The notes under the pieces: generated by a model | Told to the model about the DNA's origin: nothing | Database searches by the model: none | Seen by the model: the letters and a program-made list of their open reading frames with translations, nothing else | Made by a program: the position numbers and the translations under genes | From: Octopus sinensis | Taxonomy: Eukaryota | Length of the DNA stretch: 64,000 nt | Direction: 5' to 3' | Assembly: GCF_006345805.1 (NCBI RefSeq) | Contig: NC_043000.1 | Coordinates: forward strand, 9,424,001-9,488,000 | In this document: positions 15,793-56,208 of the stretch, in pieces | Layout: each line of letters starts with the position of its first letter | How positions within the stretch are numbered: the stretch's first letter is position 1

Positions 15793-15844
15793 GTGATTCT
15801 TGTTGCTTATTTTGAGTGTATATATATATATATATATATATATA

Positions 15845-16960
15845 CTTGGTAGTAGTAGCCAAATAGTGAGCGGTGTTCCACAAGGCACCTTTTGGGGACC
15901 ACTACTGTTCACAATGGCCCTCTCAGACATGCCCTCAGCCACGCAGAGAGCCACGACCACAAGTTATGCAGATGATACAAAAGTTTCACAGGCAATACAG
16001 AACCCTGAGGACACTAAACGCCTGCAATGTGAGCTGGACAAAATATACAAGTGGGCTGAAAAAAATAGCATGCAGTTTAATGCTGAAAAGTTTCAAGCTT
16101 TAAGCTATCAGCATGCAAAACTAAATGCAATACCCAATAAATACACTGGACCTGGAGGGATTGCAATCCCAGAGGCACAATCAGTGCGAGACCTGGGTAT
16201 TTACATGAGTGATGATGCAACCTTTCATGTGCATGTTGCTAAATTGGCAATGAAATGTAGGCGGCTGACCGGATGGATTCTTAGAGCTTTTAGAACAAGA
16301 GACCAAGAAACCATGATGGTCCTCTGGAGGACACTTGTCCTAAGCCACTTTGACTATTGCTCTCAGCTATGGTCACCATCCAGTGTCAAGTTAATCACAG
16401 AACTTGAGGCGATCCAACGAAGCTACACGAAGAAGATAGCCTCTGTGCAGCATATAAGCTACTGGGAAAGACTCAAGAGACTAAGACTCTATTCCTTAGA
16501 GCGTAGGCGAGAAAGATATGCCATAATATACATCTGGAAGATCCTAGAAGTTCTTGTCCCAAACTTTGGCATCGAGAGTTACACAAATGCTAGAACTGGG
16601 TGCCACTGCATGGTGCCAAGGACTCCAGATTTGCCATCAAGATTTAGGACAAGATACTGTGATAACCTGGGCTTCAGATGCCCACAGCTCTTCAATATCC
16701 TCCCGAAGAACCTGAGAGACCTGCATGGGGTGGATGCAGATGTCTTTATAATAAAACTGGATCTCTTCCTGTCAGGTGTCCCAGAAGAACCAACTTCACG
16801 GCAGAAGGTGCAGATGAGGGCAGCTGCATCGAACTCTCTCATGCACCAAATAGCAGTTGCTAAAAAGCATTTGTGTAGTAAAATCATGTAGCAACACAAA
16901 ATGGCAGTGCCCCAGCATGGCCATAGCTCGTGAGCTGAAACTAGATAAAATAAAATAAAA
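15845..16960 (+). mobile_element. CR1/L2-superfamily LINE, 5'-truncated; open RT frame to 16891 plus short 3' UTR
   Basis: SGVPQGT..GPLLF, YADDTK, VRDLGI, YCSQLWSP, SYWERLKRLRLYSLERRRER; ends in (TAAAA)n. Confidence 0.9.
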
Positions 16961-16990: not shown

Positions 16991-19900
16991 AGAAGAATTA
17001 AAACCTGATTTTACTGAGTTAAATTAAATTATTTACGCTTCTGCTAGGGCAATTAAAACCAGCTGTATGCCCCCGAAGAAACAAAGAAAACCAAACCTGG
17101 GAAGAAATCAAACCTGGAGAAGTAAAATTGAAAAAGAGATTGAATTTATGAGAGGGGAAATATCAATATTAAATGAACTAATATGTGGAAATGATGTAAG
17201 ATCCAGAACAGGAAGAAAGATGAAGAGAAAATTTGGATCCTCACCAAGAGAAGAACTGATATCAATAAAAGAAACGCTGAAACAAAAAGTCCAAGCAAAA
17301 ACCCAAAGAATACGAAGATTTGAGAAGAGAAACAAGTTTTACAAGCAAAATAAGCTGTTCACATCCAATGCCAAAAAATTCTACAGAGAAATAGGGAAGG
17401 AGAAAGTAACCGTTAAAGACCCCCCTCCCATGGAAGAAGTTCAAAACTTTTGGAAAAGGATTTGGAGTGACAAGAAGATGTACAACATAAATGCAGACTG
17501 GATTATACAAACTGAAGGATCCTACCAAAATTTACAACAACAAGCATGGGAAGACATCACAATAGCAGACCTAAGAAAGGCACTCACGAAGGCCCATAAT
17601 TGGAAATCCCCCGGTAAAGATAGGGTGCCGAATTTCTTGCTCGCATTGCTCCCATGCGTACATGGTAAGCTAGTTCAGCTGCTCAATGGAATTATGAGAG
17701 ACCTAAAGAAAACACCTGAATGGTTAGCAAGTGGTATTACTTACCTACTCCCAAAGAATAACGAAACCAACCTTCCAAAAAACTATCGGCCTATAACCTG
17801 TCTATCCACCACGTATAAAATCCTAACATCTATCCTGGCGGAGAAAACATATGCATTCATGGAGAAGAACGATATTTTCCCCATTGAACAAAAAGGGTGC
17901 CTCCGAGGCTCTTACGGATGCAAAGATCAACTGCTAATTAATCGTATGATCCTTGAGAACTGTCACAACAACCGCAGAAATCTCAGCTCTGCATGGATTG
18001 ACTATAAAAAGGCCTTCGACAGTATACCGCATCCATGGATCTTGAGATCGCTGGACATCTTCAAAATTTCCCCTGTGATTTCAAACTTCCCGAAGCACAA
18101 TATGTCGTTGTGGAATACGAATCTCCAATTATACCACTCTAATGGAGTACTTGCCTCAGAAAATATAAACATCAACTGTGGAATTTTTCAAGGTGACTCA
18201 CTTTCACCTTTAATATTCTGCATAGCCCTAATACCCCTTACAAGTGAATTAAACAGAACAGGGTATGGGTATAAAATTGCCAATAAAAAAATAAGCCATC
18301 TATTTTATATGGATGACTTAAAACTTTATGGTAAAGACAATAATGAACTTGAAGGCCTATTGCGCACTGTGAAAGCATTCAGCGATGACATTGGGATGGA
18401 GTTTGGACTTGAGAAGTGTGCCAAGGCCACTTTCCAGAAAGGGAAAGTGAAGACCACAACTTCAGTCATGTTAGATGTTGACACAGTCATAAGAGAGCTT
18501 GAGCAAGAACAAACATACAAATATTTAGGGATAAATGAAGGCTCTGGTATTCAGCATGCAAGCATGAAAGAGAAGATCAGGAAGGAATGTTATAGGAGAG
18601 TTCGTGCAGTCCTGAAATCTGAACTAAATGCACGTAACAAGGTGTTAGCTATAAATTCCTTAGCAGTTCCAGTTGTTACTTATAGCTACAATGTGTTGAA
18701 CTGGAATATGAGTGAAGTAAAGAATATAGATAGGAAAATACGCAAGCTGCTGAGTTGTAATAGGATGCACCACCCAAAGGCAGACGTAGATCGCCTTTAC
18801 CTTCCCAGAGCCCAAGGAGGTCGAGGCCTGATCCAATTTGAACTAGCTTACAAAACAACCACAATCGGACTGGCCAAATATCTCGAAATAACGAATGACT
18901 GGATGCTAAAGCTCGTGGAAAATCACGAGAGACGAAAGAAGCTTCATTCTATCATAAAGGAAAGCAAAAAATTTGCTATTGATCTCGTGCAGGATACCCA
19001 AACTGAACAACCCGAGGGAAGTACGGCAACTATTGTTGCAAAGAAGGTGAAAATAATGGCAACGAAAAAAGCGCACGAGCAATTGGCTGATAGGTGGGAG
19101 GAGAAACCTCTGCACGGCAAGTATGTGACCCGCAGCAAACAAGCTGATGTTGACCAGAAGCAAACCCATCAGTGGCTACGGAGCTCAGGGCTAAAAGCAG
19201 AGAGCGAAGGTTTCATCCTGGCTGCTCAAGAACAAAGCCTATTAACCCGGAACTACCAGGCCAATGTGATGAAAAATGGAGCAGACCCAAAATGCTGATT
19301 CTGCAACGACATGATTGAAACAGTGGACCACCTAATCTCTGGATGTAAAGTCTTAGCACCAGTGGAGTATAAATTAAGACATGACAGAGTTGGCCAATAC
19401 CTCCACTGCCTAATAAGTCGGCATTACAATATCAAAACTGCCGACAAGTGGTATAATCACCACCCTCAGGCTGTAACTGAAGGAGAAAATGTAACCATTC
19501 TGTGGGACTTTCCAGTACATACAGACCGAATCATCAAGGCCAATAAACCAGATATTGTTGTGAAAGACCAAAACAATAAAGTTTGCTTATTGATCGACAT
19601 GAGCATCCCCTGTGATCATAATATCTCAGCGAAAGAGTTTGACAAGCTCAGAAAATATAAAGACTTACTCATTGAAATTGAGAAAATGTGGCATCTGAAG
19701 GCGGTTACAATACCAGTGATCGTAGGAGCACTAGGAATGATCAAGAAGGGAACCGAAAATTATATTAGAATGATCCCTGGCTTACCATCCCTGCAAGAAG
19801 TGCAAAAGATTGTCTTAACTGGTACATCACACGTATTGAGAAGAGCATTGTCGATGTGAGAACTGTTGCTGCTCATGTATTTTAATTTAACTTAAAAAAA

Positions 19901-29442: not shown

Positions 29443-29495
<53 letters not shown>

Positions 29496-29506
29496 TATAT
29501 AGAAGG

Positions 29507-29556
29507 AGCTTCTACAGGACTAGTACTGTTTCATTCAGGAGAATCTTCAGGAAGCT
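29507..29556 (-). ncRNA. Type I hammerhead ribozyme motif at the left end of the palindrome
   Basis: Minus strand AGCTTC-CTGAAGA-TTCTCCTGAAT-GAAA-CAG tactagtc CTG-TA-GAAGCT. Confidence 0.72.
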
Positions 29557-29901
29557 ATTTAACAAGAATTGTATTAGCATTTATACATTTAGGCAGGTTT
29601 AAAGAGTGGTGGTGGGGGACTTTTTGGGGGTAGGCATAGCGCAAAATATCATACTTGGGGGAGTGGTCAAGGAGTCAGTGGTAAGTTAGGTGAAAGAAAG
29701 ATAAATAAAAAAAAAAAAATAAAAAATAAAAAATAGAAAAATAAAAAAAATATATATAAAAAAATTAAAAAAATAAAAAAAATAAAATGTGTGCACATAC
29801 ATACATAACACATATACATACACACACACATACGTACACATGTGTGCCTATACATACCTACACATACACACATACACATACATATATATATATATATATA
29901 T

Positions 29902-31746: not shown

Positions 31747-32071
31747 TATGTATGTGTATGTGTGTATGTGTAGGTATGTATAGGCACACAGTGTACGTAT
31801 GTGTGTGTGTATGTATATGTGTTTATGTATGTATGTGCACACATTTTATTTTTTTTATTTTTTTTATTTTTTTATATATATTTTTTTTATTTTTCTATTT
31901 TTATTTTTTTTTTTTTTTTTATTTATCTATTCTTTCACCTAACTTACCACTGACTCCTTGACCACTCCCCCAAGTATGATATTTTGCGCTATGCCTACCC
32001 CCAAAAAAGTCCCCACCACCACTCTTTAAACCTGCCTAAATGTATAAATGCTAATACAATTCTTGTTAAAT

Positions 32072-32122
32072 AGCTTCCTGAAGATTTCTCCTGAATGAAA
32101 CAGTACTAGTCCTGTAGAAGCT
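32072..32122 (+). ncRNA. Type I hammerhead ribozyme motif at the right end of the palindrome
   Basis: Stem I AGCTTC/GAAGCT; CTGAAGA; stem II TTC/GAA; GAAA; stem III ACAG/CTGT with ACTAGT palindrome in the loop; GUA triplet. Confidence 0.78.
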
Positions 32123-32208
32123 CCTTCTATATAATAAATTAATTTTACTCTGCTATGTATTGAGTACCTTACTTACTGTGGTTAACCCCGGATCAACCCG
32201 GGACCTAC

Positions 32209-32951: not shown

Positions 32952-34706
32952 ATCATCATCATCATCATCATCATCGTTTAACGTCCGCTTTCATGCTAGC
33001 ATGGGTTGGACGGTTCAACTGGGGTCTGGCAAGCCCGAAGGCTGCACAGGCAGTCAGATCTGCAGTGTTTCTACAGCTTGATGCCCTTCCTAACGCCACC
33101 CACTCCGAGAGTGTAGTGGGTGATTTTATGTGCTACCGACACAGTGCCAGACGAGGCTGGCAGACGGCCACGCTCGATGGTGTTTTTATGTGCCAACCGA
33201 CACAGGTGCAGAGGAGGCTGGCTGACGGCCACGCTCGGATGGTGTTTTCTTATGTGTCACCGACACAGGTGCCAGACGGCCACGCTCGGATGGTGTTTGT
33301 TACATGCCCTTAGCACGGAGGCCAGTCGTTGCGGTACTGGCTACGGTCACGTTCGGATGGTTTTCTTATGTGCCACCGGCACTGGTACCACAAGGATACA
33401 AATTCCATTGATGTTCATCTATTTTGATTTGGTTCGATTTGATTTGATTTGATTTGATTCTCACTTGCCTCAACAGGTCTTCACAAGTGTCACAAGAAGG
33501 AAGGTATGCACAGGTGGACTGACTACATCCCAGGTAGGGGCCACGGATTATGGCTTCACTAGTCTTGCCGGGTCTTCTCACGCACAGCATACTTCCATAG
33601 GTCTCGGTCTCTAGTCATTTCCATGGTGAGACCTAACGTCCGAAGGTCGTGCTTCACCACCTCGTCCCAGATTTTCCCGGGTCTACCTCTTCCACGGGTT
33701 CCCTCAACTGCTAGGGATTGGCACTTTCTCACACACCTATCTTCATCCATTCTCGCCACATGACCATACCAGCGCAATCGTCTCTCTTGCACACCACAAC
33801 TGATGCTTCTTAGGTACAACATTTCTCTCAAGGTACTAACGCTCTGTCGAGTAAGTACACTGACATTACACATCCATCGGAGCATACTGGCTTCGTTCCT
33901 CACGAGCTTACGCATGTCCTCAGCAGTCACGGCCCATGTTTCACTGCCATGTAGCATAGCTGTTCGTACACATGCATCATACAGTCTGCCTTTTACTCTG
34001 AGCGAGAGGCCTTTAGTCACCAGCAGAGGTAAGAGCTCCCTAAACTTTGCCCAGGCTATTCTTATTCTAGCAGTTACACTTTCAGCGCACCCACCCCCAC
34101 TACTGACTTGGTCACCTAGATAGCGGAAGCTATCAACTACTTCTAGTTTTTCCCCCGGAAAGTGACGGAAGTTGTTTTCTGCAGATTTTCAGAGGTCAAT
34201 GCTCCAGAGCATCTGCCACATACAAAAACTATCTTCCCAGTTAGCCTACCTTTGACATTGCTGCACCTCTTATGTGTCCATAGCTTACACTGGGTACATC
34301 TTATAGAGTTTCTACCTACACCTTTTCTACAGATCGAGCAGGGCCATCTTCCTGAGGATATTTGTGGATTGTCTACCTTTCTACTTATTAGTACTTTGGT
34401 TTTAGCTAGGTTGACTCTAAGGCCCCTCGATTCTAAACCCTCCTTCCACACCTGGAACTTCTCCTCCAGTTCTGATAGTGACTCAGCAATTAGAGCGAGG
34501 TCGTCAGCATAGAGGAGCTCCCAGGGGCAACCTGTCTTGAATTCCTCCACAATTGCCTGGAGGACTATGATAAATAGGAGGGGGCTGAGTACTGAACCCT
34601 GGTGGACCCCAACCTCTACTTTGAATTCTTCTGTGTACATGTTGCCAACTCTAACCTTACTTACGGCATCTCTGTACATGGCTTGCACAGCCCTCACCAG
34701 CCATTC
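32952..34706 (-). mobile_element. RTE-clade LINE, 5'-truncated (RT coding 33559-34706, one frameshift near 34150)
   Basis: VGVHQGSVLSPLLFIIV..LYADDLAL..KTKV, Cys-rich insert, RRLRWYGHV; 3' UTR with ~60 bp units and (GAT)n tail. Confidence 0.92.
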
Positions 34707-34726
34707 ATATATATATATATATATAT

Positions 34727-35628
34727 ACAGAGTGTGGGTGAATATATTGTTGTCTACATTACGCAAAATGTAAATAACACTGACATCTCGATTTAACAGA
34801 TACATTTACCAAAATTACATGAAAATATTTTGAATTACTAAAGTGTAAATTTATTCAATAAAATCACCATTGACTTCAACAAGAGCCTCCAGATGACCTC
34901 AAAGTCTCCTGCAACTATTCTGGACAGTCTCCTTGTTTAAGTTGGTGAATGCTGCCATAATCCTTACCTTCTGTTCATCTTTGGTGTTAGAAGAGGTTTT
35001 ATTGGTCTCTTGCTCAACTGTACCCCACACATAATAATGAAAGGAGTTGTAGTCTGTGGAGTTAGGTGGCCAGATGTTAGGGATGATGTGGTCACAGAAA
35101 TTGTCTGACAGCCATGACTGGATTCTCCTGCTTGAGTGGCATGGTGCAGAGTCCTGTTGCTAGACATAGGGTGTTCCAGCAGCCATCCTCTTGGTCCAGG
35201 GCAGCACTACCTCCTCCATGCACTTGATGTAAGTCTCCATGTTGAGTCTGTGGTCATGTGGGAAGATCAATGGAGGCATAACATCGCCATCACTAGTGAT
35301 CACTCCAAACCCCATGATGTTGACTGGATGTTTCATTTTTATCACTCTCAGTACATCTTTTGGGTACACAGCATACACAGCCTCTTTTGAGTACACAGTT
35401 GTTCTGTATGTTCACCATCTTTTTGTATTGGAACTTCCAGCGTGAATGCCAAGCAGTACAGCATGTTGTTTCCAAATTTCTGGCAAAGTGAATTGCATCA
35501 TGGTGCTGTTTTTCACACAGACAGTGCCCAACTGAACCTACTATACTGGGTAGTCAACAAAATCAAAAATAAACAATGCGCATGCACAACGTAACAAATA
35601 TAAAATGGCAACAATTTACTCATTGCAT
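34727..35628 (-). mobile_element. Degenerate Tc1/mariner (maT/DD37D-like) transposon
   Basis: KHPVNIMGFGVITSDGDVMPPLIF..VLPW..QQDSAPCH-like remnants; imperfect terminal inverted ends (GGGTGAATATATTGTTG/CAACAATTTACTCA). Confidence 0.72.
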
Positions 35629-39638: not shown

Positions 39639-40914
39639 CAAGGATAGGACAAAATAATGGAAACACCTTAAAATTTTGAACAAATTTATTTTAATATGGG
39701 GTAGGACCACCTTTGGCAGTAATTACAGCTTGAATTCTACAAGGTATGGACTCATACAAAGTTTGAATTGTTTCTGAAGGAATTTTTGCCCATTCTTCAT
39801 CTAAAACAGTCTCCAGTTCTTGCAGTGATGATGGTGGAGGATATTGACTCCTTGTTTTTCTAAAATACACCATAAATGTTCAATAATACTGAGATCTAGA
39901 GACTGTGGCGGCCAGATAAGATGTTCAACTTCACTAGAATGTTCCTCGTGCCATTCAGTAACAACTTTAGCTGTGTGAATTGGTGCATTATCATCCTGAA
40001 AGATTGCGCTTCCCTCTGGAAACAGTTCCGCAACCATAGGATGAATTTGATCAGATAAAATGCTTAAATAGTCTTGACTACTAATTCTGCCATGAAGGGA
40101 AACCATTGGGCCAGCGGATTTCCAAGATATAGTCCCCACCCAGATCATCACAGATCCTCCTTCATGTTTAACAGTTGGAAGAAGGCAGTCTGGGTCAAAT
40201 GCTTCTTTTGGCTGTCTCCACACGTATACTTGGCTGGTGGTCAGAAATAAGGTAAAGGATGACTTGTCTGAGAAAATTACATTCCTCCACTGCTCTAGGG
40301 ACCAATTCTGTAGGATTTTACTCCACTCTAAACGCTTTGCAATGTTTGTATTTGAAAGTAATGGTTTTCTGATTGCAGTCCTCCCATGAAATCCTACATT
40401 GTGCAGCTATCAGCGAACAGGTTTTGTGGAAATTGGGTTCTTGAGGTGGTCATTAAGCTCTGCAGTAATTTTGTGATCCTTTCTAACAATTCGTGTGAGA
40501 GTCTGATGGTCCCCATCTGAAAGTTTTGGTCTTCTTCCGGAGTTTTGTTTCGACAAGGAGGTTTTTCCCTCTTTGAGAAAAAGGGAAAAAACTCCTCGTC
40601 GAAAGGCTGTCATTATTTTCGAGACAGTACTTCTTGACACACTAAACATTTTGGCTGTTTTCATTATGCTAGCATACAAGCACCAACAATTTGACCTCTT
40701 TGAAAGTCAAGTAGATCTGTCATTTTAATGAATTTTTATTATCTTTTTCTGATGATGTCTGAAAAGAAACACCAAATTTAGCAAAACGTATTAAGCAACA
40801 CTAATAATAAATTAAAAAAAACATAAAAATAAACAAGCTTTTGACAGTTTTCTAGATATTTCAAAATTATGATGCCATGATGCTAGGTGTTTCCATTATT
40901 TTGTCCAACCTCTG
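39639..40914 (-). mobile_element. Tc1 (DD34E) transposon, full-length but frameshifted
   Basis: TIRs GGACAAAATAATGGAAACACCT/AGGTGTTTCCATTATTTTGTCC flanked by TA; HTH (VSRSTVSKI..GRRPKLS), PTVKHEGGSVMIW, FQDDNAPIH, WPPQSLDLSIIEHLW, IQAVITAKGGPTPY. Confidence 0.9.
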
Positions 40915-50035: not shown

Positions 50036-51633
50036 TCATCATCATCGTTTAATGTCCGTTTTCCGCGCTAGCACGAGTTGGACGGTTCGACCGGGGTCTG
50101 GGAAGCCAGGGGCTGCACCAGGCTCCAGTCTGATCTGGCAGAGTTTCTACAGCTGGATGCCCTTCCTAACGCCAACCACTCCGCGAGTGTAGTGGGTGCT
50201 TTTTACGTGCCACCTGCACAGGTGCCAGGGGGGTCCGGCATTGGCCACGATCGGTTGGAGCTTTTAACGTGCCACCGGCACGGAAGCCGGCCACCGCGGA
50301 GCTGGCAACAGCCACATTCGGATGGTGCTTTTTATGTGCCACCGGCACAGAAGCCAGTCGGGGTGGCGCTGGCATCGGCCACTTTCGGATGGTGCTTTTT
50401 ATGTGCCACCGGCACAGGTATCACAACTACTATTTCCATTGATATCTATTTCGATGTTCATGTTCATGTACTTGACTCAACAGGTCTCCTCAAGCACAGC
50501 GGGACGTTCTGGGATCCTGGGTACTTTGAGTGGGCAGGGGGCTATGCGGAACTGGTGCAGGAAGCAGCCCGGGTCTTTGCAGTCACAGCATATCTCCAGA
50601 GATCTCGGTCCTTCGCCATTGCCTCAGTGAGGCCCAACGCTCTGAGGTCATGCTTGACTACCTCATCCCATGTCTTCCTGGGTCTACCTCTCCCCCTGAT
50701 ACCTTCAACTGTTTGGGAGTGGCACTTCTTCACACATCTCTCCTCATCCATCCGCAGTACATGACCATACCATCGCAAGCGTCGCTCTTGCACACCACAT
50801 CTGATGCTTCTTATGTCCAGCATTTCTCTCAGGGTGCTTACACTCTGTCGTGCGTGCACACTGACATTACACATCCAGCAGATCATGCTAGCTTCATTTC
50901 TTTCAAGTCTACGCATGTCCTCTGCAGTCACAGCCCAGTTTCACTACCGTGAAGCATGGCAGTTTGCACACATGCATCATACAATCTACCTTTCACTCTG
51001 AGTGAGAGACCCTTTGTTGCCAGTAGGGGTAGGAGCTTTCTGAACTTTGCCCAGGCTATTCGTATTCTAGTGGTGATACTCTCTGAGCATCCACCTCCAC
51101 TACTAACTTGGTCACCCAGGTAGCGGAAACTATCAACTACTTCTAGTTTCTCCCCCTGGAGTGTGATGGAATCTGTTTTCTGAGTGTCTGTGGTGTCTAT
51201 TGTCCCTGTGCATCTGCCGCACATGAAAGCTATCTTATCAGTTAATTTCCCTTTGATGTTGCTGCACCTCTTATGCGTCCATAGCTTACATTGGGTGCAT
51301 CTTATGGAGTTTCTACCTACACCTTTCCTACAGATCGAGCAGGTGGCCCTGCTCGAGGGTGTGTGTGCTGAGTTCGCCTTTCTGCTTACTATAACTTTGG
51401 TCTTTGCTACATTTACTCTAAGGCCCTTTGATTCTAACCCTTGCTTCCACACTCGAAATTTCTTTTCTAGTTCCGGTAGTGATTCTGCTATGAGAGCCAG
51501 GTCATCAGCATAGAGGAGCTCCCAGGGGCAACCTGTTTTGAATTCCTCTGTTATTGCCTGGAGGACTATGATGAATGAAAGGGGACTGAGGGCTGAGCCT
51601 TGGTGTACACCTACTTCTACCAGGAATTCTTCA
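50036..51633 (-). mobile_element. RTE-clade LINE, 5'-truncated (second subfamily)
   Basis: VGVHQGSALSP, LYADDLAL, Cys-rich insert, FRYLGD, RRLRWYGHV; frameshift near 50935. Confidence 0.92.
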
Positions 51634-51647
51634 TTATATATATATAA

Positions 51648-52024
51648 AGACTGAGACCTCTGAGATATGCTGTGACTGTGAAGACCCGACAAATGAAGTG
51701 AGTTCATGGCTCACAGGACAGCCTGGATCGTAGAGTGATTCGCTGTTCTTGAGGAGACCTATTGAGTTAAGTACATCAATACCAACATCAAAATGAAGAT
51801 CAAATGGAAATTGTAGGTAAGATACCCACGCCAGTGGCACGTAAAAAGCACCCACTACACTCATGGAGTGGTTGGCGTTCGGAAGGGCATCCAGCTGTAC
51901 AAACACTGCTAGATCAGACTGGAGCCTGGCACAGCCTCCTAGCTTCCCAGACCCTGGTCGAACCAACCAACCCATACTAGTATGGAAAACGGACATTAAA
52001 CGATGAAAATGATGATGATGATGA
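51648..52024 (+). mobile_element. RTE 3' end, head-to-head with the preceding copy
   Basis: GACTGAGACCTCTGAGATATGCTGTGACTG..ATGGAAAACGGACATTAAACGATG. Confidence 0.8.
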
Positions 52025-52130
52025 TATATATATATTATATATATATATATATATAATAAATATTAGGGAATAAATCCAAATTTACAGGGAAAAAAATCAG
52101 ATTTAGGATTAAATCCAATTTTATAGTAAA

Positions 52131-52379
52131 ATATTATATAATATTAATTAGAGACAAAACCACTATTTTGCAAAACAAACAAGGAAAGACTTAATCAATA
52201 CATAAAATTTTAATAAAAAGTAAAAAAAACCGCCACTACAATTGTTTCTTGTCCTGATCGACAATCTTCAGGTGGATTTCCAATAAGTCAGTTTCAAATT
52301 ATGAAACTTTTTATTAAAAATTTATGTATTGATTAAGTCTTTCCTTGTTTGTTTTGCAAAATAGTGGTTTTGTCTCTAA

Positions 52380-52392
<13 letters not shown>
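52131..52392. repeat. ~88 bp inverted repeats enclosing a hammerhead
   Basis: TAATATTAATTAGAGACAAAACCACTATTTTGCAAAACAAACAAGGAAAGACTTAATCAATACATAAA and its exact reverse complement at ~52320-52388. Confidence 0.9.
52233..52275 (-). ncRNA. Minimal type I hammerhead ribozyme motif
   Basis: CCAC-CTGAAGA-TTGTC gatcag GACAA-GAAA-CAATTG-TA-GTGG: intact core, perfect stems I and II, palindromic stem III (ACAATTGT), GUA triplet. Confidence 0.85.
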
Positions 52393-52410
<18 letters not shown>

Positions 52411-52976
52411 ATGATTTCTTTTATATATATATAATGCAAACAAAACGAGTTATTTGAAAGAAAAATATTAAAATTTAAAAGAAAATTTTTAATTCACAGT
52501 CCTACAACAAAACAATATAATGGAAACTATTAACACTTTCAGCTGTCATGATATCTCTTTAGTAACACTGTGTTTATGGTAAAGATAGTTATCTATAATG
52601 TTAACGTCATGGTAACAGTCTGAATAGCGGACTTGACTACTGAAAGTGAAACCAGTTTCCATCTAATTATTTATCAGGTCATTTTAATCTTTTGTAAGAA
52701 TACAAAGAAAAGAAAAATGTTATTTACTTTTCAAATTTTAATTTTTTTGTCTCATATATAAAAACTCAAAAACTCGTTTGTACATATATATATATAATTA
52801 TGTAGGTGTGTGTGTGTGTGTATGCACACACACACACACATATATATATATATACATAAATATATATATTCTTTTATTTTTTTACTTGTTTCAGTCCTTT
52901 CCCTGCAGTCATGCTGGAGCACCACCTTTAGTCAAACAAATCAACCCCAGTCAATCAAAAATGTTTTCCATATATA

Positions 52977-56002: not shown

Positions 56003-56041
<39 letters not shown>

Positions 56042-56087
56042 GGTCCCGGGTTGATTCGGGGTTAACCACAGTAAATAAGGTACTCAA

Positions 56088-56140
56088 GAGCTTCCTGAAG
56101 ATTTCTCTTGAATGAAACAGTTCTAGTCCTGTAGAAGCTC
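56088..56140 (+). ncRNA. Type I hammerhead ribozyme motif (same family as 32072)
   Basis: GAGCTTC-CTGAAGA-TTTCTCTTGAAT-GAAA-CAG ttctagtc CTG-TA-GAAGCTC; 7 bp stem I. A truncated inverted copy lies at 54186-54239. Confidence 0.78.
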
Positions 56141-56149
56141 CTTCTATAT

Positions 56150-56208
<59 letters not shown>

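What the first reader, a model, noticed from the sequence alone, without database searches (positions are those of the whole stretch)
52131..52392. 260 bp MITE-looking hairpin whose loop is an intact minimal hammerhead
Seen: ~88 bp near-perfect AT-rich inverted repeats flank a 43-nt motif with every catalytic nucleotide and perfect stems. It would be annotated as a DNA MITE, but the ribozyme points to an RNA intermediate (inference). This is the cleanest small example of the proposed system.
Basis: partly seen in the sequence, partly recalled or inferred. Interest (0 to 1): 0.75.

Follow-up and report, generated by a model that had tools for sequence, protein, structure and literature searches.

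The report
Fold-back Penelope-like retroposon with hammerhead
The 260-bp hairpin is two head-to-head copies of a short non-coding repeat that carries a hammerhead ribozyme motif, most likely left by the already described Penelope-like way of reverse-transcribing an RNA into both strands of a cut microsatellite, so it is an ordinary member of a known kind and not a new mobile-ribozyme system.

Summary
There are 87-nt arms that are 99% complementary (52135-52221 / 52306-52392), and an 84-nt loop with a complete 43-nt type-I hammerhead motif on the minus strand (52233-52275, A17 at 52237).

The element is larger and asymmetric: an 82-nt "tail" (52053-52134) belongs to it, and (TA)n flanks both sides.

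In the window's own 2.7-Gb genome the family has thousands of copies. Exact 35-mers give 4174 arm, 2440 tail and 959 hammerhead matches. Copies share a constant outer end and have variable inner ends, from about 100 nt to over 2 kb. Some are solo copies abutting unique DNA.

Outer ends fall at only two positions 77 nt apart (81 and 94 of 175 copies). Head-to-head pairs carry exactly one tail in 81 of 82 cases. Both arms of a hairpin always belong to the same subfamily, and junctions vary.

These are the published signatures of Penelope-like element insertion. The family itself is non-coding, and no autonomous partner was identified.

I found no evidence that the ribozyme cleaves or is under selection: there was no Rfam hit, no covariation, no extra conservation, and no pile-up of copy ends at the cleavage site.

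Verdict: a new member of a known kind, of low to moderate interest.

The parts
52021..52052 (.). (TA)n microsatellite on the tail side; likely the insertion target
   Evidence: Sequence. All 30 aligned copies sit between (TA)n runs.
52053..52134 (-). 'Tail': the 3'-most ~80 nt of the longer, sense (minus-strand) copy. It is two diverged ~39-nt sub-repeats related to the outer end of the arm.
   Evidence: Conserved in copies on one side only. Sub-repeats D1 and D3. Exact 35-mer found 2440 times in the genome. Exactly one tail in 81 of 82 head-to-head pairs.
52135..52221 (-). Left arm: the 3'-terminal 87 nt (without the tail) of the complete copy
   Evidence: IR arm. Exact 35-mer found 4174 times in the genome, reversed control 0.
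52222..52232 (-). Spacer CGG-U8 (sense) between the hammerhead and the arm. The A/U run is a hot spot for inner ends of truncated copies.
   Evidence: 20 of 81 arms end at offsets 17-25 (arm end, GTC and A-run).
52233..52275 (-). 43-nt type-I hammerhead motif. The predicted cleavage is after A at 52237, between 52237 and 52236.
   Evidence: The 35-nt core is found exactly 959 times in the genome, reversed control 0. Activity was not tested.
52276..52305 (-). 5' leader of the short unit (sense 5'-UUCAUAAUUUGAAACUGACUUAUUGGAAAU). Its first ~21 nt match a site ~1.8 kb further in within long family members, so the short unit is an internal-deletion derivative.
52306..52392 (+). Right arm: a second copy in inverted orientation, tail-less and 5'-truncated 15 nt 3' of the hammerhead cleavage site
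   Evidence: Subfamily markers are the same as in the left arm.
52393..52412 (.). (TA)n microsatellite on the tail-less side

Best explanation
The hairpin is a head-to-head pair of one complete and one 5'-truncated copy of a short non-coding repeat that carries a hammerhead motif on its sense strand and lies in a (TA)n microsatellite. It was likely made by Penelope-like target-primed reverse transcription of one RNA on both strands of the cut target.

Shown here:
- The unit (sense = window minus strand) is 5' leader (~30 nt) - hammerhead (43 nt) - CGG-U8 spacer - 87-nt arm - optional ~80-nt tail - 3'.
- It is an internal-deletion derivative of a non-coding element of about 2.1 kb or more that has the same 3' end.
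- Copies keep the 3' end and lose variable amounts of the 5' end.
- 3' ends fall at two discrete positions 77 nt apart, with or without the tail.
- Pairs are joined 5' end to 5' end at variable points, carry exactly one tail, and both members belong to the same subfamily.

Inferred:
- An RNA of the unit is copied by the reverse transcriptase and GIY-YIG endonuclease of a resident Penelope-like element, which cuts and extends both DNA strands.
- Reverse transcription starts at either of two internal sites, and the 'tail' is the stretch between them.
- The two cDNAs come from one template or by fold-back copying. They meet in the middle, which leaves the hammerhead-bearing 5' part of the longer copy as the 'loop'.

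The hammerhead is a family heirloom of such elements. Its published proposed role is processing of longer transcripts. Whether it cleaves here is untested, and it is probably not needed for insertion.
For: Family size and structure:
- The 35-nt hammerhead core is found exactly 959 times (484+/475-) and the reversed control 0 times. The arm 35-mer is found 4174 times and the tail 35-mer 2440 times.
- Among the first 100 listed hammerheads there are 16 pairs within 5 kb in (-,+) order, with sense pointing outward, 62-4251 nt apart. There is 1 (+,-) pair and 3 same-strand pairs.
- All 7 long pairs fetched have inverted arms of 277 to about 2000 bp (94-99% identity) with the same outer ends as this hairpin, a tail on one side only, and no ORF or Pfam hit inside.

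5' truncation:
- Copies in the position-ordered sample end inside at U229, 393, 433, 560, 610, 678, 727 and on up to >1700.
- Solo copies abut unique DNA (L130, L101, L065, L062) or (TA)n.

Two 3' ends: of 175 copies, 81 start at U1-4 and 94 at U65-83 (75 of them at U78). None start elsewhere.

One-tail rule: exactly one tail in 30/30, 19/20, 6/6 and 26/26 pairs of four samples, 81/82 in total.

Same template: three subfamily markers, one of them an indel, agree between the two arms in 23/23, 29/29 and 28/28 scorable copies. 14 of 30 hairpins have identical arms.

Junctions are variable and often exactly palindromic, with loops of 0-2 nt in L063, L123, L148, L113, L139 and L141.

All 30 aligned copies lie in (TA)n.

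The genome holds abundant GIY-YIG/RT elements: 5029 first-look candidates, and 149 of 150 scored are over the Pfam cut-off, with open frames up to 883 aa. Three such copies that were read also end in (TA)n.

Literature (passages read):
- PMC8557442: inverted 5'-truncated copy adjacent, one-sided tail, (TA)n bias, hammerhead in pLTR.
- PMC4209133: minimal hammerheads in Penelope-like elements, dual motifs on opposite strands 100-700 bp apart, palindromic helix III.
- PMC11167929: the protein cleaves and extends both strands; reverse transcription starts at two internal sites and the tail is what lies between them; hammerhead mutants do not affect insertion.
Against: - No RT or endonuclease ORF in any family member read.
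- No significant similarity between the unit and the 3' end of the one resident autonomous family compared: local score 23 against a shuffle mean of 22.1, and 197 of 500 shuffles were as good. BLAST against 30 GIY-YIG loci gave only a chance neighbour copy (L039) and a low-complexity match (L033).
- The tail is ~77-82 nt, not the 30-40 bp described for Penelope-like elements.
- PMC11167929 saw no difference in start site between the strands in vitro, whereas here pairs almost always have one tail.
- Target-site duplications cannot be seen in (TA)n.
- No RNA evidence. Only assembled contigs of runs whose RNA label is a guess could be laid.
- Hammerhead: no Rfam hit. The hammerhead fold is not the predicted minimum: -5.5 against -6.6 kcal/mol alone, and -9.1 against -12.9 in the loop. 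It has a U10.1-A11.1 pair instead of the usual G-C.
- 4 of 31 copies have a broken core and 5 of 31 a broken helix II pair, with no compensation. Its diversity (3.1%) equals that of the arm (2.8%).
- Inner ends of truncated copies do not pile up at the cleavage site: 0 of 81 at offsets 26-32, and 20 of 81 lie 7-14 nt 3' of it.
Confidence: 0.75

Rival explanations
1. A DNA-level element, either a MITE or fold-back transposon with long terminal inverted repeats, or a palindrome made by fold-back repair at fragile (TA)n. On this reading the hammerhead is carried along passively, and short hairpins arise from long-TIR parents by internal deletion.
For: Near-perfect arms and (TA)n flanks fit a TA-targeting TIR element. 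Long members have inverted arms up to ~2 kb, from which deletions could make short hairpins. The tail start and the other end are 71% alike in inverted orientation (D1). Exactly palindromic junctions can also arise by DNA fold-back synthesis. Tandem copies of whole hairpins exist (L140, L005).
Against: Many copies have only one terminus and end at variable points in unique DNA. Outer ends fall at two discrete sites, and pairs carry exactly one tail (81/82), which a symmetric TIR element does not predict. No transposase or any Pfam domain was found in 7 long members. The inverted copy stops at the element's own end and does not copy the tail or the flank.
Confidence: 0.1
2. A non-LTR retrozyme in the strict sense. 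Tandem units would be transcribed, cut at two hammerheads, ligated into a ~340-nt circular RNA and copied back into DNA. The hairpin would reflect the rod-like fold of that circle.
For: Unit size is ~255-343 nt with a type-I hammerhead that has a weak helix III and a palindromic loop, as in metazoan retrozymes (PMC7229834, passages read). Head-to-tail pairs exist: L005 with period 341, and 3 same-strand pairs among 100 hammerheads. A 2026 preprint argues that animal retrozymes are non-autonomous Penelope-like sequences (10.64898/2026.07.22.740005, abstract and passages read).
Against: This copy and most others are single or inverted, not tandem: 16 inverted against 3 direct pairs per 100. One hammerhead cannot excise a unit. 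Junctions are variable and do not lie at the cleavage site. No circular or cleaved RNA could be looked for.
Confidence: 0.1
3. The hammerhead-like motif is a chance or decayed sequence with no catalytic capacity, in a repeat of another class such as a Helitron-like or SINE-like element.
For: No Rfam hit. The fold is not the predicted minimum. No covariation or extra conservation.
Against: The full descriptor match is expected 0.005 times per window. A second, unrelated repeat in the same window carries another hammerhead-like motif in the same position and architecture. In both families the motif lies on the strand with the constant 3' end.
Confidence: 0.05

Closest known systems
Insertion units of endonuclease-positive Penelope-like elements (Penelope/Poseidon, Neptune, Naiad), as described in PMC8557442 and PMC11167929
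   Same: Hammerhead motif on the sense strand near the 3' end. Heavy 5' truncation. An inverted 5'-truncated copy joined head to head. An extension ('tail') at only one end, with two discrete 3' ends. A strong bias for (TA)n microsatellites in which target duplications cannot be seen.
   Different: No RT-endonuclease ORF in this family and no detected sequence link to an autonomous element. The tail is ~77-82 nt instead of 30-40 bp. Direct pLTR-type partial tandems are rare here. The one-tail-per-pair rule is nearly absolute (81/82).
Minimal / type-I hammerheads of metazoan Penelope-like elements and retrozymes (PMC4209133, PMC7229834)
   Same: Type-I topology, a short helix I (4 bp), helix III of 2 bp closed by a palindromic AAUU loop that would allow dimers, thousands of genomic copies mostly as single motifs, and dual motifs on opposite strands 60-700 nt apart.
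   Different: A U10.1-A11.1 pair instead of the conserved G10.1-C11.1. No extra nucleotide between A9 and 10.1. Helix II is 5 bp rather than 7-8 bp. Very low sequence diversity within the family (about 3%). Not recognised by Rfam models.
Non-LTR retrozymes and hammerhead satellites (newt satellite 2, Schistosoma Sm-alpha; named from the papers' text and from recall)
   Same: A non-coding, AT-rich unit of about 170-350 nt with one type-I hammerhead, dispersed and occasionally tandem.
   Different: Mostly solo or inverted rather than tandem. No circular RNA has been shown.
MITEs and fold-back DNA transposons
   Same: A small, AT-rich, near-perfect hairpin between TA repeats that a MITE finder would call.
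   Different: Asymmetric ends, single-ended truncated copies, variable junctions, and no transposase-bearing parent found.

Membership tests
Hammerhead ribozyme (type I, minimal/PLE type) | Catalytic core C3-U4-G5-A6-N7-G8-A9, G12-A13-A14, cleavage-site H17 | tested here: met
   CUGAAGA ... GAA ... GUA on the minus strand 52233-52275.
Hammerhead ribozyme (type I, minimal/PLE type) | Three helices around the core, with helix I open | tested here: met
   Helix I CCAC/GUGG, helix II UUGUC/GACAA, helix III AC/GU. The strict descriptor gives 1 hit in the window, and 1 of 200 shuffles gave any hit.
Hammerhead ribozyme (type I, minimal/PLE type) | Short helix III with a palindromic loop (dimer-capable) | tested here: met
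   ACAAUUGU is self-complementary (sequence). The feature is as listed in PMC4209133.
Hammerhead ribozyme (type I, minimal/PLE type) | G10.1-C11.1 pair and an extra nucleotide between 9 and 10.1 (features of PLE min-HHRs in PMC4209133) | tested here: not met
   U10.1-A11.1 and no bulge.
Hammerhead ribozyme (type I, minimal/PLE type) | Match to a curated covariance model | tested here: not met
   No Hammerhead family at gathering score (whole window) or at E<=10 (501 nt; 69 nt).
Hammerhead ribozyme (type I, minimal/PLE type) | Compensatory changes in helices among relatives | tested here: inconclusive
   31 copies: no double change, 5 single changes that break helix II pair 10.1-11.1, 4 changes that break the core. 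The family is too young (about 3% diversity).
Hammerhead ribozyme (type I, minimal/PLE type) | Self-cleavage | not testable with these tools
   No raw RNA reads were on offer. Copy ends do not mark the site.
Penelope-like element (insertion signature / non-autonomous derivative) | RT plus GIY-YIG endonuclease ORF | tested here: not met
   None in 7 long members. Abundant elsewhere in the genome. So at most a non-autonomous derivative.
Penelope-like element (insertion signature / non-autonomous derivative) | Constant 3' end, variable 5' truncation | tested here: met
Penelope-like element (insertion signature / non-autonomous derivative) | Adjacent inverted 5'-truncated copy | tested here: met
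   16 (-,+) pairs against 1 (+,-) pair among 100 hammerheads. Pairs are also seen.
Penelope-like element (insertion signature / non-autonomous derivative) | 'Tail' at one end only / two reverse-transcription start sites | tested here: met
   Outer ends at U1-4 (81) or U65-83 (94) of 175 copies. Exactly one tail in 81/82 pairs. The length of ~77 nt differs from the published 30-40 bp.
Penelope-like element (insertion signature / non-autonomous derivative) | Microsatellite target, no clear target duplication | tested here: met
   (TA)n on both sides of 30 of 30 copies.
Penelope-like element (insertion signature / non-autonomous derivative) | 3'-end homology to an autonomous element of the same genome | tested here: not met
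   Only 30 of 5029 candidate loci and one family's 3' end were compared, so the partner may have been missed.
Non-LTR retrozyme | Head-to-tail tandem units, each with a hammerhead | tested here: not met
   This copy is single plus an inverted partner. There are 3 same-strand pairs per 100 hammerheads in the family.
Non-LTR retrozyme | Circular RNA of unit length | not testable with these tools
MITE / TIR DNA transposon | Both terminal inverted repeats in every mobile copy, and a fixed target duplication | tested here: not met
   Single-ended solo copies. Asymmetric tail. The duplication is not readable in (TA)n.

The most novel reading that the evidence does not exclude
In this young family of thousands of copies, the two cDNAs of an insertion always use different start sites, giving one tail per head-to-head pair (81/82). 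They also come from one template molecule, shown by subfamily concordance and exactly palindromic junctions. If so, the family is a natural record of the polarity of Penelope-like integration: one DNA strand primes at the RNA's 3' end, the other at an internal site 77 nt upstream, or the second copy is made by fold-back on the first cDNA. The one in vitro study did not resolve this polarity.
Probability: 0.35. Interest if true: 0.5.

Novelty: new member of a known kind. Interest (0 to 1): 0.3.

Why it matters
For annotation: hairpins of this kind will be called MITEs by structure-based finders, although they are dead-on-arrival retro-copies. Thousands of them in a 2.7-Gb genome would inflate counts of DNA transposons.

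For mechanism: how Penelope-like elements produce inverted copies and one-sided tails is still open. This family gives unusually clean numbers: two 3' ends exactly 77 nt apart, one tail per pair in 81 of 82, and same-subfamily arms in every scorable case. These numbers constrain models.

For ribozyme biology the result is sobering. A perfect-looking hammerhead in a hairpin loop shows no sign of selection or of use in the genomic copies.

Tried and rejected
- Rfam scans of the window and of the motif alone gave no hammerhead match; only a spurious SNORA12 fragment at E 1.4.
- Public runs: no RNA holder was listed. The 24 runs are Logan contigs and their RNA label is a guess. Laying 4 of the 24 (X1, X2, X3, X11) gave short contig pieces, no joints, and no start or end information. 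A second lay, on runs of other organism labels, did not complete twice because the machine was busy. The family's spread to other species is therefore left open.
- Autonomous partner: I fetched 30 of 5029 GIY-YIG candidate loci. Only a chance neighbouring copy (L039) and a low-complexity match (L033) resembled the element. 1 of 30 has a hammerhead-like core within 900 nt downstream of the ORF. The 3' end of the main family is not significantly alike, and short shared words (TAGTGGCG, AAGAAACAATT) are within chance.
- I tested the idea that truncated partners are copies of hammerhead-cleaved RNA, which would put inner ends at the cleavage site. I rejected it as stated: 0 of 81 arms end at offsets 26-32, and the hot spot lies 7-14 nt further 3', in the A/U run.
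- Pure snap-back copying of the first cDNA cannot explain every pair. In 7 of 30 hairpins, and in L070, L083 and L132, the tail-bearing copy is the shorter one.
- Target-site duplications were looked for by eye in four solo copies with unique flanks; none was clear. One possible long duplication in L030 was not followed up.
- ESM Atlas look-up of the window's RT ORF, done to place the organism, was uninformative. The organism is left unnamed.
- ORFs of long family members and of the second family's interior have no Pfam match.

Full report
**1. The observation**

The inverted repeat is as described: arms 52135-52221 and 52306-52392, 87 nt, 99% complementary, with 84 nt between them. As RNA the 262 nt fold to -133 kcal/mol, against -39 for shuffles (z -24).

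The loop holds, on the minus strand at 52275->52233, CCAC-CUGAAGA-UUGUC(GAUCAG)GACAA-GAA-AC(AAUU)GU-A|GUGG. This is a type-I hammerhead layout with every core nucleotide, and A17 lies at 52237.

- A loose core pattern has 12 matches in the window against 1.4 expected.
- A strict descriptor with perfect helices hits only this site, and 1 of 200 dinucleotide shuffles of the window gave any hit. The motif is not chance.
- Rfam does not recognise it, at gathering score or at E<=10.
- The helices are short (4, 5 and 2 bp).
- The hammerhead fold is slightly less stable than the predicted minimum: -5.5 against -6.6 kcal/mol for the 43 nt, and -9.1 against -12.9 in the loop context.

**2. The element is larger and asymmetric**

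The window lies in a 2.72-Gb assembly. A search with the 262 nt gave 2288 first-look candidates. The 40 that were scored, together with the window's own copy, make 41 places covering essentially the whole query at 90-100% identity.

I aligned 30 copies with their flanks (L006 dropped as the same place as L005).

- An ~82-nt extension (window 52053-52134) is conserved next to one arm only. With the loop held in one orientation, it is on the left in 23 copies and on the right, reverse-complemented, in 7.
- All 30 copies lie between (TA)n runs.
- The junction between the loop and the shorter arm differs from copy to copy.

**3. The family**

Exact 35-mers were counted over the whole genome: hammerhead core 959 (484+/475-), arm 4174, tail 2440. 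The reversed controls were 0 in every case.

The first 100 hammerheads are listed by position. By my reading they include:

- 16 pairs within 5 kb in (-,+) order, with the ribozyme sense pointing outward, 62 to 4251 nt apart;
- 1 pair in (+,-) order, which lies between two adjacent pairs (L109);
- 3 same-strand pairs.

I fetched seven of the wide pairs. They are large fold-backs with inverted arms of 277, 443, 715, 798, 1469, 1588 and about 2000 bp at 94-99% identity. Their outer ends are identical to the arms of the window's hairpin, and the tail is on one side only in 7 of 7. No ORF of 150 aa or more lies in the element bodies, and the smaller ORFs have no Pfam match.

I used one natural copy (L091:859-3113, called U) as a ruler. 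The short unit of the window equals U1-229 joined to about 21 nt that lie near U2056-2076. It is therefore an internal-deletion derivative.

**4. Constant 3' end, variable 5' end**

In the position-ordered samples, copies begin at the same outer end. They stop inside at U229 (short units), 393, 433, 560, 610, 678, 727, 873, 900 and on up to beyond 1700.

- Solo copies with no inverted partner in the fetched flanks end against unique DNA (L130, L101, L065, L062).
- Complete short units end against (TA)n on both sides (L112, L117-L119, L126, L075, L088, L105).
- Of 175 copies, the outer end is at U1-4 in 81 and at U65-83 in 94 (75 of them at U78). No copy ends anywhere else.

The hammerhead reads on the strand whose 3' end is this constant end.

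**5. Pairs**

- Exactly one member of a head-to-head pair carries the tail. This holds in 30/30 query-like hairpins, 19/20 pairs of the hammerhead-listed sample, 6/6 long pairs found by the script and 26/26 pairs of the arm-listed sample, 81/82 in all. The exception is L072.
- Either the longer or the shorter member can carry the tail.
- Three markers define three subfamilies: two substitutions and a 1-nt indel. They agree between the two arms in 23/23, 29/29 and 28/28 scorable copies.
- 14 of 30 hairpins have identical arms.
- Many junctions are exact palindromes, with loops of 0-2 nt in L063, L123, L148, L113, L139 and L141. Others, like the window's, are asymmetric.
- Whole hairpins also occur in tandem (L005 with period 341; L140 with three units).

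**6. What it is**

Each of these features is published for Penelope-like elements.

- PMC4209133 (parts 1 and 2 of 4 read) describes minimal type-I hammerheads in these elements. It reports thousands of mostly single motifs, dual motifs on opposite strands 100-700 bp apart, a palindromic helix III, and low activity in vitro.
- PMC11167929 (passages read) shows that a purified Penelope-like protein cleaves and extends both DNA strands. It starts reverse transcription at two internal sites, and the tail is the sequence between them. Hammerhead mutants did not affect insertion, and no RNA-seq ends lay at the cleavage site.

The genome holds many RT/GIY-YIG elements. There are 5029 first-look candidates, 149 of the 150 scored are over the Pfam cut-off, and frames reach 883 aa. 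Three copies that I read also end in (TA)n.

The hairpin is therefore best read as one complete unit with a tail (sense on the minus strand) plus a tail-less partner truncated 15 nt 3' of the hammerhead site, both made during one Penelope-type insertion. The copying by such an enzyme, the use of one template and the way the two cDNAs are joined are inferences.

**7. What does not fit or is missing**

- The family has no coding capacity, and I could not link it by sequence to an autonomous element. I examined 30 of about 5000 loci and the 3' end of one family.
- The tail is 77-82 nt rather than 30-40 bp.
- The in vitro study saw no strand difference in start site, whereas here the one-tail rule is nearly absolute.
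- No RNA evidence could be had.

**8. The ribozyme**

- Of 31 copies, 4 have a broken core: a deleted A of GAAA, G8>A, and A13>U twice.
- 5 have a broken 10.1-11.1 pair, 4 have an A>G in loop 3, and 1 has a deletion in loop 3. There is no compensatory change.
- Mean pairwise difference is 3.1% in the motif, 2.8% in the left arm and 4.5% in the tail.
- In an arm-anchored sample of 81 arms that is unbiased for the motif, inner ends fall as follows: 11 inside the arm; 20 at the arm end or A-run; 0 at the cleavage site; 1 inside the motif; 49 beyond it.

The copies therefore do not record cleaved templates. This is what one expects of dead-on-arrival copies of a young family. It neither proves nor disproves activity of the master copies.

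**9. Rivals**

- A TIR transposon or DNA fold-back origin explains the arms, the (TA)n flanks and the palindromic junctions. It does not explain single-ended truncated copies, two discrete ends, the one-tail rule or the lack of any transposase.
- A strict retrozyme cycle needs tandem units, which are rare here.
- A chance motif is excluded by the descriptor test. It is also excluded by a second, unrelated family in the same window with the same layout.

**10.

A finding from another genome (e1-8039718) reached the same reading for a similar hairpin. I treated it as a lead and tested the reading independently here.

**Verdict**

The 'system' is the known Penelope-like insertion pattern. This is a new, abundant, non-autonomous member of a known kind.

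Noticed in passing
window 29495-29808 and 31823-32140 (motifs at 29513-29550 minus, 32078-32116 plus); also 56030-56150 (motif 56095-56133 plus): A second, unrelated repeat carries a hammerhead-like motif: GGAGCUUC-CUGAAGA-UUUC(UCCU)GAAU-GAA-ACAG(UACUAGUC)CUGU-A|GAAGCUCC, with a weak helix II that has a U-U at its base. The motif lies ~20 nt from a constant end at (TA)n. The copies form a head-to-head pair 2.5 kb apart, with a ~70-nt extension on one side only (32141-32208). The 56-kb copy is preceded by the reverse complement of that extension. The exact 35-mer occurs only 4 times in the genome, including one (-,+) pair 43 nt apart. The interior has no Pfam match.
   Followed up: partly
family copies, offsets 17-25 after the arm 35-mer (window equivalent 52221-52229): Inner ends of truncated copies cluster at the arm end and the A/U run (20 of 81 arms), 7-14 nt 3' of the predicted cleavage site. 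None are at the site and 1 is inside the motif. The cause is not determined; it could be a homopolymer pause, fold-back priming or something else.
   Followed up: partly
window 51900-52020; also flanks in L005, L015, L038: A SINE-like repeat ending in (GAT)n/(ATC)n followed by (TA)n lies next to the hairpin. The same repeat with its microsatellite also flanks other copies of the family and the 3' end of a resident RT/GIY-YIG element. It seems to be a recurrent landing site.
   Followed up: no
L031-L060 (own genome, GIY-YIG loci): The main resident RT/GIY-YIG family has frames up to 781-883 aa and ends in (TA)n. In 29 of 30 loci no canonical CUGANGA...GAAA core lies within 900 nt downstream of the ORF. 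Its 3' region shares only short words (AAGAAACAATT, TAGTGGCG) with the hairpin family, which is not significant.
   Followed up: partly
window 50928-51710 minus and 34143-34805 minus; 15797-16891 and 17028-19298 plus; 39801-40406 minus: Other mobile-element remains are present. There are two RT fragments followed by a PHD finger. There is a 756-aa open frame with RVT_1 (E 4e-28), preceded by a 364-aa RT fragment. There is also a Tc1/mariner-type DDE_3 + HTH_Tnp_Tc3_2 fragment.
   Followed up: no
L140 (G000:C1:3735750-3737090) and L005 (G000:C11:14448536-14451797): Whole hairpin units, each arm-arm or arm-loop-arm with one tail, are repeated in tandem. L140 has three units 312-400 nt apart with identical junctions. 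L005 has two units with period 341. Hairpins are therefore also amplified secondarily at the DNA level.
   Followed up: no
L030 (G000:C2:13949481-13952738) flanks: The block GTTTGTGG(G)TTTGGG plus (TA)n occurs on both sides of the copy. This is either a long target duplication of some tens of bases or a pre-existing repeat.
   Followed up: no
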